5,004 bases of DNA from a virus (IMGVR_UViG_3300014523_000031); one strand, 5' to 3'; positions 1 through 4,670 are shown, numbered from the stretch's first letter. Numbers and translations are program-made. Notes: a model not told the origin generated them from the sequence alone.

Positions 1-77
1 ATATCTCCTTCGTTACCGATTAATTCTTTCATCTGACGAATGAATTCTTCGTCTGACCAGTTATCTGTAAAACTCAT
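1..77 (-). CDS. Hypothetical protein, N-terminal part only (MSFTDNWSDEEFIRQMKELIGNEGD...); continues past window start
   Basis: ATG at 77-75 on minus, open to position 1. Its start overlaps the stop of the upstream cIII-like ORF (ATGA, plus 74-77), suggesting translational coupling. Absent from the ORF track because it is truncated. Product not recognised. Confidence 0.45.
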   Translation of the reverse strand, partial: MSFTDNWSDEEFIRQMKELIGNEGD

Positions 78-244
78 GGACGGCCTTGTTGTTTCAAAAT
101 ATCCCAAAGCTTTTCGAGCAAACTTTTCATTCTTGGTTGTTTAAAGTCTGCTCCGGTTAAAATGTTTTTTCGTGAATGCTGTACCGATAAAATCGGGTTG
201 AAAGGGCGAACCGATGCCGCCCCTGCAATAGCGAACTGTTGCAT
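74..244 (-). CDS. cIII: CIII-like protein (lambda CIII family, FtsH inhibitor that stabilises CII), 56 aa
   Basis: Hand translation gives MQQFAIAGAASVRPFNPILSVQHSRKNILTGADFKQPRMKSLLEKLWDILKQQGRP. The N-terminus (MQ.FAIAG) and C-terminal SLLE...DIL.Q.G segment resemble lambda CIII as I recall it. AAGGAG Shine-Dalgarno 6 nt upstream of ATG 244. Reading frame stays open upstream into the N gap, so the true start is not certain. Below the ORF-track size cutoff. Confidence 0.6.
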   Translation of the reverse strand: MQQFAIAGAASVRPFNPILSVQHSRKNILTGADFKQPRMKSLLEKLWDILKQQGRP

Positions 245-298: not shown

Positions 299-414
299 NN
301 NNNNNNNNNNNNNNNNNNNNNNNNNNNNNNNNNNNNNNNNNNNNNNNNNNNNNNNNNNNNNNNNNNNNNNNNNNNNNNNNNNNNNNNNNNNNNNNNNNNN
401 NNNNNNNNNNNNNN
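299..414. other. Assembly gap (116 consecutive N)
   Basis: Direct observation of an N run; true length and content unknown. Confidence 0.99.
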
Positions 415-441: not shown

Positions 442-457
442 GCCAAAAATAAAGGCC
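442..457. repeat. 16-bp exact direct repeat gccaaaaataaaggcc, copy 1 (copy 2 at 968-983)
   Basis: Identical 16-mers at 442-457 and 968-983, each forming the U-tract and proximal stem of the terminator just 3' of a minus-strand accessory gene. Confidence 0.8.
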
Positions 458-470
458 GACTATGCGGCCT
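442..470 (-). terminator. Rho-independent terminator downstream of the 151-aa ORF
   Basis: On the minus strand: 6-bp GC-rich stem (plus 453-458 aggccg / 465-470 cggcct), 6-nt loop, then TTATTTTTGG (complement of plus 442-452). Sits 5 nt after the stop at 475. Confidence 0.6.
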
Positions 471-474
471 GAAA

Positions 475-930
475 TTACTTAACCAATGATGCTGCATATT
501 CGATAAGGTAAAGCTTTGGGGCCAGCCAAATTTTTAACCAAGTCATATTGGTTACTACACCAATAATAAAAAATCCCCACAGAGTCAAAACTCCAACCAA
601 TGGCATGATAAGAAGATTAATATCACCTTTGCTATCCCAAACCATTGTCGGCCTGTATTTGGGATTTCCTTTCTCCCATGAATATCCTTCATCACCGATT
701 TTACCTGTCTCAACTCTTTGGCACTGCTTCTTCATAAACCAGAAAACCAGTGGGATTGTTAGAATGGCGATGGCCATTAATGTTTTAATCAGACTGTCAA
801 CCATATTCCATAGCAGCAACTGATGAACAACATCAGGAATCTGTGCCTGGCTAAATGAAACAGCCGCGTCTATTCCATTACTGGCTTTTTGCAGTAGTTC
901 TACGAGAATCTTGTTTGCTTGTTCTTCCAT
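475..930 (-). CDS. Hypothetical small membrane protein, 151 aa, two predicted transmembrane segments; function unknown
   Basis: ATG 930 with AAGGTGA Shine-Dalgarno (complement of plus 934-940). Hydrophobic stretches LMAIAILTIPLVFWFM and LLIMPLVGVLTLWGFFIIGVV flank a charged loop. Has its own downstream terminator. The antisense ORF 548-823 looks compositionally junk-like. Confidence 0.75.
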   Translation of the reverse strand: MEEQANKILVELLQKASNGIDAAVSFSQAQIPDVVHQLLLWNMVDSLIKTLMAIAILTIPLVFWFMKKQCQRVETGKIGDEGYSWEKGNPKYRPTMVWDSKGDINLLIMPLVGVLTLWGFFIIGVVTNMTWLKIWLAPKLYLIEYAASLVK

Positions 931-970
931 ATATCACCTTGATTTTAATAAGCATGAAATTATTTACGGC
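921..970. repeat. About 50-bp imperfect direct repeat at the 5' boundary of the accessory genes, copy 1 (copy 2 at 1231-1280)
   Basis: Ungapped hand alignment of 921-970 against 1231-1280 gives 36 of 50 identical positions, in the same register relative to the two start codons (930 and 1240). Covers the first codons, the SD and about 40 nt upstream. Confidence 0.6.
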
Positions 971-999
971 CAAAAATAAAGGCCACCATCAGGCAGCCT
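968..999 (-). terminator. Probable rho-independent terminator downstream of the 83-aa ORF
   Basis: Minus-strand hairpin AAGGCUGCC-UGAU-GGUGGCCUU (9-bp stem with two G-U pairs) followed by UAUUUUUGG. Contains copy 2 of the 16-bp repeat and overlaps the stop codon at 989-991. Confidence 0.45.
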
Positions 1000-1240
1000 T
1001 GTTGTAAATGTTGCAGGTATCAAGTAAGTAATTAGATGGAGCGCCATAAATTATGAATTCATCGTTTGTCGGGTCCATCTCCATCTCTTGGCCTATTGCC
1101 ATTCTTGCGTCAGTGTCATCAGAGGCGAAGCATAAAACAGCCCACGCACCCATTGTTTTAAAAAGAACTGCAATTGGCTGTGGTTTTACTGAATTTGCGT
1201 TAGCGCGAAAATCACAAATCGCACTTTCATGAAATTCCAT
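989..1240 (-). CDS. Hypothetical soluble protein, 83 aa; function unknown
   Basis: ATG 1240 with GAGGTGAG Shine-Dalgarno (complement of plus 1244-1251). No hydrophobic segments. Sits between the tL1-like terminator and the 151-aa membrane protein gene. Confidence 0.65.
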   Translation of the reverse strand: MEFHESAICDFRANANSVKPQPIAVLFKTMGAWAVLCFASDDTDARMAIGQEMEMDPTNDEFIIYGAPSNYLLDTCNIYNKAA

Positions 1241-1280
1241 ATCTCACCTCAATCGTAATAAGCTGGAATTGATTTTCCGC
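1231..1280. repeat. Copy 2 of the 5'-boundary repeat (see 921-970)
   Basis: See copy 1; 36 of 50 identities by hand alignment. Confidence 0.6.
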
Positions 1281-1379: not shown

Positions 1380-1435
1380 CTATGACCATTTTTTATTTGG
1401 ATTTCGTTGGTGAGCGTGATTAACAACTCTGTGCA

Positions 1436-1717
1436 TTACATCCTCATATTTTTCATCTTCAATTTTTCGACATTGCGAGGAAATGGTGTTGCTAATGCTT
1501 TGTCAACTTTGTCCATTGGTTCTTCATTAATCTTATATTCAGGACCGTCATCTATAGCATTAAATCCAGGTGTTACACCGTTTTTTAATGCATATGCTAT
1601 CCTTTTTTCCCATCTCGCTATTCTCCTCCTGTCTCGAGATGTAAGACCTCTATCAGATACTTTTCTGTTTTGTCCGCGGTCAGGATTAACATAAATAGTC
1701 TTTTTCACCATAAGCAT
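1436..1717 (-). CDS. Hypothetical basic protein, about 93 aa, immediately downstream of and coupled to N
   Basis: The ORF-track start at 1723 is a TTG codon. The first ATG (1717-1715) lies 2 nt after the N stop codon (1722-1720). Charged, arginine-rich composition (SRDRRRIARWEKR). Stop TAA 1436-1438. The antisense plus ORF 1407-1694 is low-complexity hydrophobic and rejected. Not recognised. Confidence 0.5.
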   Translation of the reverse strand: MLMVKKTIYVNPDRGQNRKVSDRGLTSRDRRRIARWEKRIAYALKNGVTPGFNAIDDGPEYKINEEPMDKVDKALATPFPRNVEKLKMKNMRM

Positions 1718-1719
1718 AC

Positions 1720-2025
1720 TCAATAAGCACCGTACGGTAGTTTACTGTACAATTTTATTTTTTGGACTGCATGTATTTTGTTTCCTAACGGGTTTGAATC
1801 TTTGTAATAAATACTTCTATTTTTTCGAACGACTTCTTCTTTCTTCTTGCAGCAAAGGCTTCCTAGTGATGCTGCTTTGTCTGCTCTGACGCAACCAGAG
1901 AGCTTTAGCGCAATTTTTCGCGCCAGTGCTTCATTACTGCGTCGATCGGCAATAAGTTCTGCTCTGCGAGCTTTGTAGCGGCTTTTTGCCGTACCTTTGG
2001 ATTCTTTCCAGACAATGGTTACCAT
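1720..2025 (-). CDS. N: Transcription antitermination protein N, phage-21-type arginine-rich motif
   Basis: Product MVTIVWKESKGTAKSRYKARRAELIADRR... carries the boxB-binding motif GTAKSRYKARRAELIA known from phage 21 N. AAGGAG Shine-Dalgarno 6 nt upstream of ATG 2025. The ORF-track start at 2055 adds 10 residues with no SD, so I place the start at 2025. Lies directly downstream of PL and nutL. Confidence 0.9.
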   Translation of the reverse strand: MVTIVWKESKGTAKSRYKARRAELIADRRSNEALARKIALKLSGCVRADKAASLGSLCCKKKEEVVRKNRSIYYKDSNPLGNKIHAVQKIKLYSKLPYGAY

Positions 2026-2340: not shown

Positions 2341-2990
2341 TAAGGAAGGTTTGCTAGCTTGGCATCAACGACAACGCCAATGATTTTACAGTTCCCATTG
2401 ATTTCAATCATTGGGTATTGTGGATTGAGTGGTTTCAGGAATTTTCTACCGGCATCAATAACTAACTTTTTGAATGTCGCCTCGTTTTCTCCTTCAAGTT
2501 TGGCGACTACCAGCTTTCCATTACGTGGTTCGACTTCTGGGTCGACGAGAATAATCATCCCCTCAGGAATACTCAGTCCTGCCGGGGCAGTCATTGAATC
2601 GCCTTTAACGTCGAGCCAAAAAGAGTCTTCAGAACAATCTACCGTTGTGTCGTACCAGTTATCTATTGCACGCCTATGATATGGCTCTACAGCTTCCATC
2701 CAACATCCTGCGCTTACCCAACTAATTAGAGGATACGAACCTCTTGGATCATGCCTGCTGTGATAGGCAATGTTTGAAAGACTATCCTCTCCTTTCAACA
2801 GGTAATCAGGGGAGCACTGCAAAGCCTTGGCTAAGGCCAATAGGTTTTCGCCATTGGGCTCAGTTTCAGATCGCTCCCATTGGGAAATAGCAACATTAGA
2901 CACGCCAACCATCTTGCCAAGGGCAGCCTGCCTAATCTTGAGTTCTTTTCTGCGAGCGCGAATACGCTCACCCATCAGTTGTGTATTCAT
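2340..2990 (-). CDS. cI: Phage repressor CI (P22 C2-type): N-terminal HTH domain plus C-terminal S24/LexA-like autopeptidase domain
   Basis: 216 aa. HTH segment QAALGKMVGVSNVAISQWERS; Ala-Gly cleavage site in WVSAGCW; catalytic Ser in GDSM and Lys in VVAKL. Sequence matches my recollection of the P22 c2 repressor along its length. Transcribed divergently from cro across the operator region. Confidence 0.96.
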   Translation of the reverse strand: MNTQLMGERIRARRKELKIRQAALGKMVGVSNVAISQWERSETEPNGENLLALAKALQCSPDYLLKGEDSLSNIAYHSRHDPRGSYPLISWVSAGCWMEAVEPYHRRAIDNWYDTTVDCSEDSFWLDVKGDSMTAPAGLSIPEGMIILVDPEVEPRNGKLVVAKLEGENEATFKKLVIDAGRKFLKPLNPQYPMIEINGNCKIIGVVVDAKLANLP

Positions 2991-3070: not shown

Positions 3071-3256
3071 ATGTACAAAAAAGATGTTATTGACCACTTC
3101 GGAACCCAGCGTGCTGTTGCTAAAGCACTAGGCATTAGCGATGCAGCAGTCTCTCAGTGGAAAGAAGTTATCCCAGAGAAAGACGCCTATCGATTGGAAA
3201 TCGTTACAGCTGGCGCCCTGAAGTATCAAGAAAGTGCTTACCGCCAAGCGGCATAA
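3071..3256 (+). CDS. cro: Cro repressor (P22 Cro-type), 61 aa
   Basis: GGAG Shine-Dalgarno at 3060-3063, ATG 3071. HTH segment QRAVAKALGISDAAVSQW. Sequence matches my recollection of P22 Cro. First gene after PR. Confidence 0.95.
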   Translation: MYKKDVIDHFGTQRAVAKALGISDAAVSQWKEVIPEKDAYRLEIVTAGALKYQESAYRQAA

Positions 3257-3349: not shown

Positions 3350-3394
3350 ATCAATATAGGAAAATTAACAAATGGCACAAGCAAGCTACAGCAA
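3350..3394 (-). promoter_or_regulatory. Candidate PRE (establishment promoter) with a CII-binding direct repeat TTGC-N6-TTGC
   Basis: Minus strand reads TTGCTGTAGCTTGC (complement of plus 3381-3394), the canonical CII recognition geometry. It lies within the first codons of cII and points leftward toward cro and cI, as in lambda. The -10 element is not well defined. Confidence 0.55.
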
Positions 3395-3668
3395 GCCAAC
3401 ACAGCGAGAAATTGATCGCGCTGAAACTGATTTACTCATCAACCTGTCAACGCTTACCCAGCGCGGTCTGGCAAAGATGATTGGCTGTCATGAATCGAAG
3501 ATAAGCAGAACGGACTGGAGATTTATTGCTTCGGTCTTGTGTGCTTTCGGAATGGCATCAGACATCAGTCCGATTAGCAGGGCTTTTAAGTATGCGCTTG
3601 ATGAAATCACAAAGAAAAAATCCCCGGCCGCCACCGAGGATTTTAAGCAAATTGATATGCAATTCTGA
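3372..3668 (+). CDS. cII: CII-family transcriptional activator (lambda CII / P22 C1 analog), 98 aa
   Basis: C-terminal KKKSPAATEDFKQIDMQF parallels the lambda CII C-terminus (NKKRPAATERSEQIQMEF as I recall it). HTH-like segment TQRGLAKMIGCHESKISR. AGGA Shine-Dalgarno upstream of ATG 3372. Located after cro and nutR. Confidence 0.9.
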   Translation: MAQASYSKPTQREIDRAETDLLINLSTLTQRGLAKMIGCHESKISRTDWRFIASVLCAFGMASDISPISRAFKYALDEITKKKSPAATEDFKQIDMQF

Positions 3669-3700: not shown

Positions 3701-3862
3701 ATGACAAAACGTCGTAAGAAATACCAGGAAAAAGAAGAGATTCGACACCCTGATTCACCTGAGGGATTAGTGGTAGCCGCAGCAAATAACAGGGCGTTCG
3801 CAGAGCGCCTTGTTGGTGTTTACAGACTAGCCAAAGCAGGGGTGAAACATGGGCGTCGTTAA
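3701..3862 (+). CDS. Possible small ORF, 53 aa, basic N-terminus ([53 protein letters not shown])
   Basis: AGGAG Shine-Dalgarno at 3691-3695 with 5-nt spacing to ATG 3701. Stop TAA 3860-3862 overlaps the start of the O-like gene by 14 nt in another frame. Absent from the ORF track because of size. Not recognised. Confidence 0.4.
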   Translation: MTKRRKKYQEKEEIRHPDSPEGLVVAAANNRAFAERLVGVYRLAKAGVKHGRR

Positions 3863-4670
3863 GTTAGCTGATTACAGGCCTCAACTGGAGGTCGTGGAGC
3901 ATCGCGTGGCAGATACCGAAGATGGTTTCATGCGCGTTGCTAACGAGATTATCGACAGTCTGCTGATGGCTGATTTAACCGTCCGGCAGTTGAAGGTGAT
4001 GCTCGCTATCATGCGCAAGACATACGGATTCAATAAGCCGATGGATCGACTCACAAACACGCAGATAGCAGCCATGACAGGTATTCATCACACTCATGTT
4101 TGCGCTGCCAAGCGCCAGCTTATCGAGCGTAAATTCCTCATTGCTGATGGCGTGAAAATCGGAGTGAACAAGGTGGTTTCTCAGTGGATTAGCCAGGACA
4201 GCTTAACATTAGCTAAAACAGCTAATAAAACATTAGCCAAGTCGGCTAATGGGTATAAGCCAAGTCAGCTAAACACAAAAGACAATATACAAAAGACAAT
4301 AAATACAAATACCCCCTTACCCCCTAACGGGGGCGGCGATGGGCAGGTTAAACCTGAACGTCGCAAGGCAGAACGAATCGACTACGAATCCTTCCTGAGC
4401 GCCTACAACGCCGAAGTCGGTGACAGACTTCCACACGCTGTTGCGGTCAACGAGAAACGCAAACGCCGCCTGAAGAAAATCATCCCGCAACTGAAAACGC
4501 CAAACGTGGACGGTTTCAGAGCGTATGTCAGGGCGTTTGTACATCAGGCCAAGCCGTTTTACTTCGGAGACAACGACACTGGCTGGACGGCAGATTTTGA
4601 TTACCTGCTGAGGGAAGATTCGTTAACGGGAGTACGGGAAGGGAAGTTTGCAGACAGGGGGATTGCATGA
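3849..4670 (+). CDS. Replication initiation protein, lambda O / P22 gp18 type
   Basis: 273 aa. N-terminal region ([56 protein letters not shown]...) has the hallmarks of the phage O N-terminal DNA-binding domain. Low-complexity linker ([13 protein letters not shown]) coincides with ori-like iterons in the DNA. Stop TGA overlaps the ATG of the downstream helicase (ATGA at 4667-4670). Confidence 0.9.
4187..4273. repeat. ori-like iterons: four copies of an approximately 20-bp repeat with internal dyad symmetry, inside the O-like gene
   Basis: Copies start at about 4187, 4207, 4231 and 4254, with a core near ATTAGCCAAGTCGGCTAA. The best copy is TTAGCC-AAGTC-GGCTAA at 4233-4249, whose two arms are reverse complements. 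Copies 3 and 4 share 16 of 20 positions by hand alignment. Confidence 0.7.
4274..4333. promoter_or_regulatory. A-rich tract and GC palindrome following the iterons (putative origin unwinding region)
   Basis: 4274-4312 is strongly A-rich on the plus strand and contains a 12-bp direct repeat caaaagacaata (4276-4287 and 4290-4301). It is followed by the palindrome CCCCC-TAAC-GGGGG at 4320-4333. This mirrors the iteron / AT-rich / palindrome layout of lambda ori. Confidence 0.6.

What the first reader, a model, noticed from the sequence alone, without database searches (positions are those of the whole stretch)
475..930. 151-aa two-transmembrane protein of unknown function at the sieB-equivalent position
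Predicted topology is a soluble N-terminal region of about 35 aa, a first transmembrane segment, a charged loop of about 38 aa (KKQCQRVETGKIGDEGYSWEKGNPKYRPTMVWDSKGD), a second transmembrane segment and an amphipathic C-terminal tail. Small membrane proteins in the PL operon of lambdoid phages are typically superinfection-exclusion or abortive-infection effectors (SieB, RexB, Kil-like). This one has its own strong RBS and terminator. I cannot match it to a named family from memory.
Basis: inference. Interest (0 to 1): 0.6.

Follow-up and report, generated by a model that had tools for sequence, protein, structure and literature searches.

The report
Uncharacterised phage two-helix membrane protein
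The finding is a real phage gene for a small two-helix membrane protein from a very large, unstudied family (Shigella phage Sf6 gene 34 type) with constant ends and a swappable membrane core; it is unrelated to SieB, RexB or SieA, and its function, most likely in competition between phages at the cell envelope, is untested.

Summary
The ORF is real: window 475-930, minus strand, 151 aa. It has two hydrophobic helices (about residues 46-66 and 105-128), a ribosome-binding site (RBS) and a terminator-like hairpin. It is under purifying selection (dN/dS 0.35).

It matches PHROG family phrog_3054 over its full length (E 7.6e-62, function unknown). It has no Pfam, NCBIfam or PADLOC match. Profile comparison shows no similarity to SieB, RexB or SieA, and fold searches gave nothing useful.

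The family is large: 2,525 clusters at 50% identity. It occurs in temperate and virulent phages of Escherichia, Salmonella, Vibrio, Pseudomonas and Ralstonia. Its position varies: early-left operon, directly after the lysis genes, or as an opposite-strand insert among structural genes.

"sieB-equivalent position" is inexact. Real sieB genes sit next to it on the opposite strand in 10 of 80 related loci.

The architecture is unusual. A constant 42-aa N-terminus and 23-aa C-terminus flank an unrelated, exchangeable two-helix core. At the same slot, Sf6 shares 97% of N-terminal bases but 14% of core residues. A jumbo phage carries three tandem paralogs.

Published RNA-seq of a 98% ortholog (prophage Gally) shows expression independent of the early-left promoter PL, in some conditions only.

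Best guess, unproven: a stand-alone envelope-level exclusion protein.

The parts
475..930 (-). Coding sequence of the 151-aa membrane protein (stop codon TAA at 475-477), a member of PHROG 3054 / the Sf6 gene 34 family.
   Evidence: ORF and translation. (phrog_3054, E 7.6e-62, full length). (homologs). (dN/dS 0.345).
805..930 (-). Constant N-terminal segment, residues 1-42: acidic and helical, with the motif GIDAAVxFSQAQIPDVxxQLLxW; F26 and P32 are invariant.
   Evidence: alignments A1, A2. (96.8% nt identity to Sf6 gene 34 and 91.3% to HK633 over these codons). (dN/dS 0.17).
733..795 (-). First transmembrane helix, about residues 46-66. It contains the 6-nt insertion (Met52-Ala53, window 772-777) seen in no ortholog I retrieved.
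   Evidence: hydropathy. (the aligned homologs lack these two residues; E. coli matches are 450 nt and viral-contig matches 447 nt, against 456 nt here). (exact protein seen once).
619..732 (-). Loop, residues 67-104. It is rich in Lys/Arg just after helix 1 and in Asp/Glu just before helix 2. The model predicts a small beta-hairpin.
   Evidence: (AlphaFold2 strands at 74-79 and 89-92). (loop length 10-76 aa across the family; charge statistics).
547..618 (-). Second transmembrane helix, about residues 105-128; the fastest-evolving part of the protein.
   Evidence: (dN/dS 0.76).
478..546 (-). Constant C-terminal amphipathic segment, residues 129-151, with the motif WLKIWLAPKLYLIEYAASLVK; K139 and Y145 are invariant.
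   Evidence: (75-86% nt and 83-91% aa identity to Sf6 and HK633). (dN/dS 0.27).
931..953 (-). Translation-initiation junction CTTATTAAAATCAAGGTGATAT directly before the ATG (RBS AAGGTGA at 934-940). The motif TTATTxxAGGTGA(T/G)AT-ATG recurs before orthologs whose upstream DNA is unrelated, and before the neighbouring 83-aa gene.
   Evidence: sequence. (clusters of upstream sequences in 74 loci).
445..470 (-). Terminator-like hairpin AGGCCG-CAUAGU-CGGCCU followed by UUUAUUUUU, directly after the stop codon.
   Evidence: (-9.7 kcal/mol, z = -1.97). Conserved in Gally.
970..1000 (-). Terminator-like hairpin at the end of the upstream 83-aa gene. Without N antitermination it should limit read-through from PL into the gene.
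   Evidence: (-13.9 kcal/mol).

Best explanation
**What it is.** Window 475-930 (minus strand) encodes a stand-alone inner-membrane hairpin protein. It belongs to a large, uncharacterised, phage-restricted family (PHROG 3054; Shigella phage Sf6 gene 34 is a member).

**Build (shown).** A constant, acidic, helical N-terminal segment (about 42 aa) and a constant amphipathic C-terminal helix (about 23 aa) flank an exchangeable core. The core is two transmembrane helices plus a loop. It is unrelated between alleles that occupy the same genomic slot.

**Topology (inferred).** The positive-inside rule puts the loop in the cytoplasm. Both constant ends would then lie on the periplasmic face.

**Expression.**
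- Inferred from anatomy: the gene lies in the PL early-left operon, behind terminators that N antitermination would read through.
- Shown for a 98% ortholog in prophage Gally: in some conditions transcript levels are about 8-fold above background while the N transcript stays at background.

**Function (inferred, untested).** The protein acts alone at the cell envelope in competition between phages. It would block productive genome entry by superinfecting phages, using the same logic as T4 Imm, P22 SieA or HK97 gp15. The constant ends would hold a conserved envelope or entry component, and the variable core would set which competitors are affected. It is not a homolog of any of those proteins.
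For: **Real gene, membrane protein.**

**Acts alone, moves as a single-gene cassette.** There is no conserved neighbour.
- The upstream DNA differs between orthologs right up to the RBS junction.
- Positions include the PL operon; directly after the spanin or lysis genes; after Q; an opposite-strand insert between head-closure and tail-completion genes in a Vibrio myophage; and regions next to phage RNA polymerase, dUTPase or thymidylate synthase genes in N4-like virulent phages. phi92 also carries a copy.

**Present in both temperate and virulent phages**, as are known entry-exclusion proteins.

**Signs of an arms race in the core.**
- Sf6 and HK633 alleles at the same slot share 97% and 91% of N-terminal bases but only 14-18% of core residues.
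- dN/dS reaches 0.76 in helix 2, against 0.17 in the N-terminus.
- Ralstonia jumbo phage RsoM2USA has three tandem paralogs with different cores.

**Some expression from a repressed prophage.** LF82_104 (GALLYPH_30) reaches log2 7.0-7.1 in conditions B6, MB1 and MB6. In B6 the N gene is at 3.9-4.1 and portal and terminase are near 3.5 (PMC9928086, S1 Table).

**Topology statistic.** In 115 of 127 diverse members the loop flanks carry more Lys/Arg than the outer flanks. The N-tail averages 2.4 Lys/Arg against 6.1 Asp/Glu.
Against: - No phenotype data exist for any member. Literature searches found none.
- There is no sequence or fold similarity to any characterised exclusion protein.
- No convincing promoter lies in front of the gene.
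- In LB overnight cultures the Gally ortholog is at background, and the authors call Gally 'devoid of any moron'.
- Five of six non-PL contexts in enterobacterial prophages lie right after the lysis cassette. Two of these overlap the end of the spanin gene. That hints at a role linked to lysis instead.
- The fast-evolving core could simply be a weakly constrained membrane anchor. The topology is a statistical prediction only.
Confidence: 0.35

Rival explanations
1. Lysis-associated membrane protein. It would modulate the timing or completeness of envelope disruption, for example as an antiholin-like or spanin- or endolysin-modulating factor. It would be made with, or ahead of, the lysis proteins.
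For: - In Pantoea prophages the start codon overlaps the stop of the LysC-family (Rz1-type, o-spanin) gene as ATGA, and a strong terminator follows.
- In a JGI contig the gene overlaps the end of a DUF2514 (Rz-like) gene by 20 nt.
- In E. coli prophages, in PhiR46_1 and in Enterobacteriaceae BIT-l23 it lies between the lysis cassette and the terminase genes.
- In another prophage it lies in the late operon after Q.
- If the constant ends are periplasmic, they could meet the periplasmic domains of lysis proteins.
Against: - In P22-like phages the gene sits in the early-left operon, about 10 kb from the lysis genes. In N4-like virulent phages it lies among phage RNA polymerase and nucleotide-metabolism genes, with no lysis gene annotated in the stretch read.
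- The core does not follow the phage's own holin. Gally, Sf6 and HK633 carry three unrelated cores but holins that are 99-100% identical. The window-type core also occurs with holins only 22-30% identical and with a Phage_holin_2_1 holin.
- Three tandem paralogs in a jumbo phage and expression in a repressed prophage while holin transcripts stay at background are hard to fit.
- The region between Rz and the terminase is also a classical slot for accessory genes (general knowledge of lambdoid genomes).
Confidence: 0.2
2. Counter-defence or host-takeover factor. An early membrane protein would neutralise a membrane-embedded host or prophage defence effector, or another inner-membrane host protein. 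The variable helices would pair with the target's helices.
For: - The neighbourhood in lambdoid PL operons is rich in such functions: ral, abc/gam, P22 gene 17, kil.
- It lies among phage RNA polymerase and nucleotide-metabolism genes in N4-like virulent phages.
- The core is hypervariable, and tandem paralogs exist.
Against: - Late-operon positions in many prophages.
- PL-independent expression in a repressed prophage.
- An opposite-strand, moron-like insertion among structural genes.
- The most conserved parts are the ends, which are predicted to face the periplasm rather than the cytoplasm.
- No match in PADLOC or to any annotated family.
Confidence: 0.2
3. Abortive-infection or toxic membrane effector of the SieB, RexB or Kil type. 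This is the sharper form of the first reader's suggestion.
For: It is a small membrane protein in the same general region as sieB and kil. It lies between terminator-like hairpins.
Against: - No homology: hhalign probability <= 0.4% to SieB, RexB and SieA.
- It coexists with sieB in 10 of 80 loci.
- It is co-oriented with PL, unlike sieB.
- It has no partner gene comparable to RexA.
- It is carried by virulent phages, which gain nothing from aborting their own infection.
Confidence: 0.08

Closest known systems
Shigella phage Sf6 gene 34 protein and PHROG family phrog_3054 (function unknown)
   Same: - The window protein matches the family profile over its full length (E 7.6e-62), and all 84 aligned members match it.
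- Sf6 gene 34 occupies the same slot: the last gene of the N-ral segment, before a tL2A-like terminator.
- The N-terminal 42 codons are 96.8% identical at the DNA level.
   Different: The two-helix core is unrelated (14% aa identity, and of different length). The window allele is the 149-aa 'Gally type' plus a 2-aa insertion.
P22 SieA (inner-membrane superinfection-exclusion protein; PMC10883804)
   Same: It is a small phage-encoded inner-membrane protein that acts without other phage proteins. It occurs in several very divergent sequence types. This is the mode of action proposed here.
   Different: SieA has three predicted transmembrane helices, a conserved FxRYPxEAxxFNK motif and its own promoter, and it lies between gene 16 and mnt. 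There is no sequence relationship (hhalign probability 0.1%).
P22 and lambda SieB, and lambda RexB (abortive-infection membrane proteins)
   Same: They are membrane proteins encoded in the immunity or early-left region of lambdoid phages.
   Different: - sieB lies on the strand opposite to PL, and the P22 record annotates its own promoter.
- rexB lies directly next to rexA and cI in lambda.
- Neither is related to this protein.
- sieB coexists with this gene in 10 of 80 loci.
T4 Imm and HK97 gp15 (small membrane proteins that block genome entry; recalled from memory, not tested here)
   Same: - They are small, stand-alone inner-membrane proteins.
- Imm is made early by a virulent phage.
- gp15 is a moron inserted among tail genes, much like the Vibrio-phage copy of this family.
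   Different: No Pfam family is matched by the window protein even at E <= 1. I did not retrieve the sequences of Imm or gp15, so no direct comparison was made.

Membership tests
PHROG phrog_3054 (Sf6 gene 34 family) | Full-length match to the family profile. | tested here: met
   E 7.6e-62, residues 1-151 against profile positions 1-137 of 137. All 84 aligned relatives match the same PHROG.
PHROG phrog_3054 (Sf6 gene 34 family) | Family signature as I derived it: an N-terminal FSQAQIPDVxxQLLxW motif, two hydrophobic helices, and a C-terminal WLKIWxAPKLYLIEYA motif. | tested here: met
   F26, P32, K139 and Y145 are invariant in 84 sequences and present in the window protein.
SieB (P22 and lambda) | Sequence homology to SieB. 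| tested here: not met
   hhalign probability 0.39% (P22 SieB) and 0.11% (lambda SieB). No Pfam family at E <= 1.
SieB (P22 and lambda) | The gene lies on the strand opposite to PL, between N/24 and ral, with its own promoter (annotated in the P22 record). | tested here: not met
   The window gene is co-oriented with PL. The P22 and lambda annotations show sieB on the other strand. Real sieB genes lie next to orthologs in 10 of 80 loci.
SieB (P22 and lambda) | Abortive-infection phenotype with self-protection by an internal Esc product. | not testable with these tools
   This needs infection assays.
RexB (lambda) | Sequence homology to RexB. | tested here: not met
   hhalign probability 0.14%.
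RexB (lambda) | A four-helix protein. | tested here: not met
   Only two hydrophobic helices here. The four-helix count for RexB is recalled, not tested here.
RexB (lambda) | Encoded directly next to rexA and cI. | tested here: not met
   The lambda record shows rexB adjacent to rexA and cI. Here there is no conserved partner gene.
SieA (P22) | Three predicted transmembrane helices, the conserved motif FxRYPxEAxxFNK, and a location between gene 16 and mnt with its own promoter. | tested here: not met
   hhalign probability 0.11%. The motif is absent from the sequence. The SieA features come from PMC10883804 and the P22 record.
Holin or cognate antiholin | Membership of a holin family, or a specificity region that follows the phage's own holin. 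| tested here: not met
   No holin Pfam match. Three unrelated cores occur with holins that are 99-100% identical, and one core type occurs with holins 22-30% identical.
Moron (autonomous accessory transcription unit expressed from the prophage) | Own promoter and terminator, and transcription in the repressed prophage. | tested here: inconclusive
   - A terminator is present.
- No conserved or convincing promoter was found.
- The Gally ortholog is at background in LB overnight culture. It is about 8-fold above background, independently of N, in three other conditions.
Entry-blocking superinfection-exclusion proteins (functional class) | Blocks genome entry of superinfecting phages without killing the cell. 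| not testable with these tools
   This needs plating-efficiency, adsorption and DNA-entry assays.

The most novel reading that the evidence does not exclude
PHROG 3054 is a widespread modular system of specificity cassettes. Two constant periplasm-facing ends form a common effector or docking module. A hypervariable two-helix membrane core is exchanged by recombination inside the gene and multiplied as tandem paralogs in jumbo phages. The core decides which competitor phages are shut out, or which membrane-embedded defence effectors are neutralised. This would be a new and very common family of phage-phage or phage-defence interference proteins, shared by temperate and virulent phages of Gammaproteobacteria and at least one Ralstonia (betaproteobacterial) phage.
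Probability: 0.2. Interest if true: 0.7.

Novelty: new variant of a known kind. Interest (0 to 1): 0.45.

Why it matters
Small phage membrane proteins are a large blind spot in phage annotation.

- **Scale.** This family has at least 2,525 clusters at 50% identity, no Pfam entry and no studied member. At the DNA level it is present in 244 of 5,426 complete E. coli genomes. It also occurs in model phages that can be manipulated genetically: Sf6, HK633, phi92 relatives and N4-like phages.
- **Design.** The constant-variable-constant build, with sharp recombination joints inside the gene, is the kind of pattern seen in specificity determinants under an arms race.
- **If it excludes phages or disarms defences.** It would affect phage host range, prophage competition in gut E. 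coli and Salmonella, and the design of phage cocktails.
- **If it is only a weakly constrained anchor carrying a small conserved domain.** It still defines a new conserved phage domain with an unknown envelope target.

Tried and rejected
1. **Protein family libraries.** Pfam, NCBIfam and PADLOC scans of the window protein found nothing. A Pfam scan of 84 relatives found no consistent family, only scattered single hits.
2. **Solved structures by sequence.** The only hit was a chance match at E 1.6.
3. **Structure prediction and fold search.** Mean pLDDT was 63.9 with 23 sequences and 76.8 with 84. The model is one long helix (2-70), a small hairpin in the loop, then helices 108-127 and 130-150.
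   - Foldseek against PDB and BFVD gave nothing below E 3.
   - The afdb50 library was unavailable.
4. **Profile comparison.** hhalign against P22 SieA, P22 SieB, lambda SieB and lambda RexB was negative in every case.
5. **'Cognate antiholin' idea.** I asked whether the variable core pairs with the phage's own holin. I rejected this because three unrelated cores accompany essentially identical holins.
6. **Promoter search.** I looked for a promoter belonging to the cassette. Upstream DNA is unrelated between orthologs beyond the RBS junction. The best local candidates are weak: TGGACC-16-CATAAT at 1077-1050 inside the 83-aa gene, and TTGGCC-17-TATTAA at 973-945.
7. **Rfam search of the Gally region equivalent to the masked N-run.** No match.
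8. **Literature.** Searches for the PHROG id, Sf6 gene 34, and inner-membrane exclusion proteins of lambdoid phages found no study of any member. A CRISPRi study of strain LF82 does not mention this gene.
9. **Plasmids.** All 23 hits are in Escherichia, Salmonella or Shigella plasmid records. 22 of them are non-mobilizable and most are about 46-48 kb, which I take to be phage-plasmids. There is no sign of a life outside phages.

Full report
**Setting**

The window is a 5,004-nt JGI metagenome contig. It carries the immunity region of a P22-type lambdoid phage:

| Gene | Window coordinates | Strand |
|---|---|---|
| c2 repressor | 2340-2990 | - |
| cro | 3071-3256 | + |
| cII/c1-like | 3372-3668 | + |
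| O-like replication protein | 3849-4670 | + |
| N-like antiterminator (PL operon) | 1720-2055 | - |
| Nun-like gene (PL operon) | 1385-1723 | - |
| 83-aa gene, phrog_2471 (PL operon) | 989-1240 | - |
| ORF of the finding (PL operon) | 475-930 | - |

The PL operon runs leftward on the minus strand. Terminator-like hairpins on the minus strand follow c2, the Nun-like gene, the 83-aa gene and the target gene: nine sites were found, against 2.0 expected. The closest sequenced phage is Escherichia phage Gally, a P22-like prophage of strain LF82. It has the same 83-aa and membrane-protein gene pair (97% DNA identity; the protein is 98% identical).

**Observation**

- The ORF encodes the quoted 151-aa sequence.
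- Hydropathy peaks lie at residues 47-65 and 108-126.
- A hydrophilic loop spans residues 67-104.
- The C-terminal tail is amphipathic and fairly hydrophobic.
- The soluble N-terminal part is about 45 aa rather than 35.
- The RBS AAGGTGA sits three bases before the ATG.
- The hairpin after the stop codon folds at -9.7 kcal/mol and is followed by a U-run.

The gene is real.
- 526 homologs have E <= 0.001 in the word-indexed search. Those that carry a name are called 'hypothetical protein'.
- 2,525 representative clusters (1,164 at E <= 1e-10) appear in the exhaustive profile search.
- Pooled pairwise dN/dS among 55 distinct close orthologs is 0.345.

The window copy has a 6-nt insertion (Met52-Ala53). 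The aligned homologs lack these two residues, and the DNA matches in E. coli genomes (450 nt) and viral contigs (447 nt) are correspondingly shorter.

**Family and architecture**

The protein is a full-length member of PHROG 3054, function unknown. It matches no Pfam, NCBIfam or PADLOC model and no solved structure by sequence.

Alignments show an unusual pattern:
- Residues 1-42 are nearly invariant.
- The last 23 residues (WLKIWLAPKLYLIEYAASLVK) are nearly invariant.
- The two helices and the loop vary freely. Loop length ranges from 10 to 76 aa.

At the same genomic slot in related phages the ends are close to identical in DNA sequence, but the core is unrelated:

| Compared with the window | N-terminal 42 codons, nt identity | Core, nt identity | Core, aa identity | C-terminal 23 codons, nt identity |
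|---|---|---|---|---|
| Sf6 gene 34 | 96.8% | 35% | 14% | 75% |
| HK633 | 91.3% | 40% | 18% | 85.5% |

The same break shows up in E. coli genomes. Some matches cover only the first 116-124 nt, at about 98% identity.

Regional dN/dS among close orthologs:

| Region | dN/dS |
|---|---|
| N-terminus | 0.17 |
| Helix 1 | 0.39 |
| Loop | 0.35 |
| Helix 2 | 0.76 |
| C-terminus | 0.27 |

Ralstonia jumbo phage RsoM2USA carries three tandem paralogs with the conserved end motifs and different cores.

**Topology**

In 127 diverse representatives the 10 residues after helix 1 average 2.6 Lys/Arg. The 10 before helix 1 average 0.6. The 46-aa N-tail has 2.4 Lys/Arg against 6.1 Asp/Glu.

Counting 15-residue flanks, the loop is the more positive side in 115 of 127 proteins. 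The positive-inside rule therefore favours a cytoplasmic loop with both constant ends in the periplasm. This is a prediction only. The C-tail carries two to three lysines, and no topology predictor or experiment was available.

The AlphaFold2 model (mean pLDDT 76.8) shows a long N-terminal helix continuous with helix 1, a small beta-hairpin in the loop, and two helices after residue 108. Fold searches returned only generic helical hairpins.

**Where the gene sits**

It behaves as a single-gene cassette.
- Upstream DNA differs between orthologs up to a short junction, TTATTxxAGGTGA(T/G)AT-ATG. The same junction precedes the 83-aa gene.
- Upstream and downstream neighbours fall into many unrelated clusters.

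Positions found:
- The PL operon in P22-like and HK97-like phages. In Sf6 it is the last gene before a tL2A-like terminator and a mapped mosaic 'boundary sequence'.
- Directly after the lysis cassette in E. coli, Pantoea and other enterobacterial prophages. In two cases it overlaps the end of the spanin gene.
- After Q in another prophage.
- As a lone opposite-strand insert between head-closure and tail-completion genes in a Vibrio myophage.
- Next to phage RNA polymerase, dUTPase or thymidylate synthase genes in virulent N4-like Salmonella and Vibrio phages.
- In phi92, and in a Pseudomonas phage whose annotators noted the likeness to Sf6 gene 34.

About 178 of 50,697 phage records carry it, sporadically within each lineage. 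Plasmid hits are mostly non-mobilizable E. coli replicons of about 46-48 kb, which I take to be phage-plasmids.

**Relation to sieB, rexB and sieA**

- In P22 and lambda, sieB lies on the strand opposite to PL. The P22 record annotates a promoter of its own for it.
- In 10 of 80 related viral contigs a true sieB sits directly upstream of an ortholog of the window gene, on the opposite strand.
- The window gene is therefore a neighbour of the sieB slot, not its equivalent.
- Profile comparisons with P22 SieB, lambda SieB, lambda RexB and P22 SieA are all negative.
- The features that define SieA are absent: three helices, the FxRYPxEAxxFNK motif, and a location in the immI region.

**Expression**

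There is no convincing promoter in front of the gene. By anatomy it is part of the N-antiterminated PL transcript.

Published RNA-seq of LF82 lysogenic for Gally adds direct data on the 98% ortholog, LF82_104 (PMC9928086, S1 Table).
- In LB overnight culture it is at background: 18.6 against a median of 15.6. The authors call Gally devoid of morons.
- In conditions B6, MB1 and MB6 it reaches log2 7.0-7.1.
- In B6 the N gene stays at 3.9-4.1, the portal and terminase genes near 3.5, and the holin gene near 3.7.
- This is about 8-fold above the local background. It cannot be explained by PL activity or by a lytic subpopulation.
- The text I read does not define the medium of B1 and B6. The source of this transcript is unresolved.

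**What it most likely does**

No member has been studied, so this part is inference.

The facts to explain are:
- It is a stand-alone, horizontally mobile gene.
- It is carried by both virulent and temperate phages.
- It is expressed early, late or autonomously, depending on the phage.
- It is expressed at a low level from at least one repressed prophage.
- It has strongly conserved ends, probably on one face of the inner membrane.
- Its core shows allelic replacement, relaxed or diversifying evolution, and paralog expansion.

An envelope-level interference function in phage-phage competition fits all of these. Such a protein would block productive genome entry, as T4 Imm, P22 SieA or HK97 gp15 do. 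I give this a confidence of 0.35.

A role linked to lysis is the main rival (0.2) because of the repeated position after, and overlap with, spanin genes. Three observations argue against it: the core does not follow the phage's holin; the PL-operon location in P22-like phages and the location among RNA polymerase and nucleotide-metabolism genes in N4-like phages; and the prophage expression.

A counter-defence or host-takeover role (0.2) fits the neighbourhood (ral, abc/gam, gene 17). It fits poorly with late-operon and prophage expression.

An abortive-infection effector of the SieB or RexB type (0.08) is disfavoured by the lack of homology, the coexistence with sieB and the presence in virulent phages.

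**Novelty and score**

- The gene itself is ordinary in the sense that hundreds of near-identical copies are already deposited as 'hypothetical protein'.
- The family is large, has no Pfam entry and is unstudied.
- Its constant-variable-constant cassette design was not described in anything I could find.
- I rate it as a new variant of a known kind (small phage accessory inner-membrane proteins), with interest 0.45. It is a good experimental target rather than a surprise.

Noticed in passing
window 1385-1723 (minus strand); frameshift at the A-run 1465-1469: A Nun-like gene (phrog_5632, HK022 Nun type) lies directly after an N-like antiterminator gene (1720-2055). Compared with an intact 112-aa homolog (L022 3523-3861), the window has A5 instead of A6. 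The frameshift removes the last 24 residues (...HRVVNHAHQRNPNKKWS). This could be a pseudogene or a homopolymer sequencing error. Finding N-like and Nun-like genes in tandem in a P22-immunity phage is itself unusual.
   Followed up: partly
window 299-414: A run of N masks about 125 nt just downstream of the gene's terminator. In Gally the equivalent DNA (around L001 3880-4000) contains another terminator-like hairpin (minus-strand CTTTGCCCTCCAGTGTGAGGGCCTTTTT). It lies where Sf6 has its tL2A terminator and boundary sequence bsq4. It has no Rfam match.
   Followed up: partly
window 74-244 (minus strand): A 56-aa ORF has the RBS AGGAGCATCCT-ATG, and its stop overlaps the start of the next gene (ATGA at 74-77). 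The corresponding DNA is unannotated in Gally.
   Followed up: no
window 931-953 and 1241-1262 (minus strand); L021-L100: A conserved junction, TTATTxxAGGTGA(T/G)AT-ATG, precedes both the 83-aa and the 151-aa genes. It also precedes orthologs whose upstream DNA is otherwise unrelated. It looks like a recombination or translation 'linker' that joins cassettes in the early-left operon.
   Followed up: partly
window 989-1240 (minus strand): The 83-aa protein of phrog_2471 (function unknown) is very common: the exact sequence is on at least 1,000 contigs. It occurs without the membrane-protein gene in Stx phages such as VT2-Sakai, so the two genes are independent cassettes.
   Followed up: partly
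window 772-777 (minus-strand codons 52-53): An in-frame 6-nt insertion (ATGGCC, next to ATCGCC) lengthens the first transmembrane helix by Met-Ala. It also creates the palindrome AATGGCGATGGCCATT (763-778). It is absent from every ortholog I retrieved.
   Followed up: yes
Gally prophage in LF82 (PMC9928086, S1 Table): Several Gally genes in classical accessory slots rise together in the bacteria-only conditions B1 or B6, while lytic genes stay at background: GALLYPH_13-17, 20-22, 30, and 52 (the gene right after Rz). The 'no morons in Gally' conclusion drawn from LB overnight cultures may therefore depend on the condition.
   Followed up: partly
L014 (Ralstonia phage RsoM2USA) 2169-2648, 2896-3360, 3373-3903: Three tandem paralogs of the family (159, 154 and 176 aa) have longer N-terminal tails and different cores. 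The record also annotates overlapping ORFs on the opposite strand, which are probably spurious.
   Followed up: partly
L016 (HK633) 2560-2925, minus strand: HK633 encodes an intact 121-aa family member (short-loop allele). The GenBank record annotates only a 58-aa C-terminal fragment (HK633_044).
   Followed up: yes
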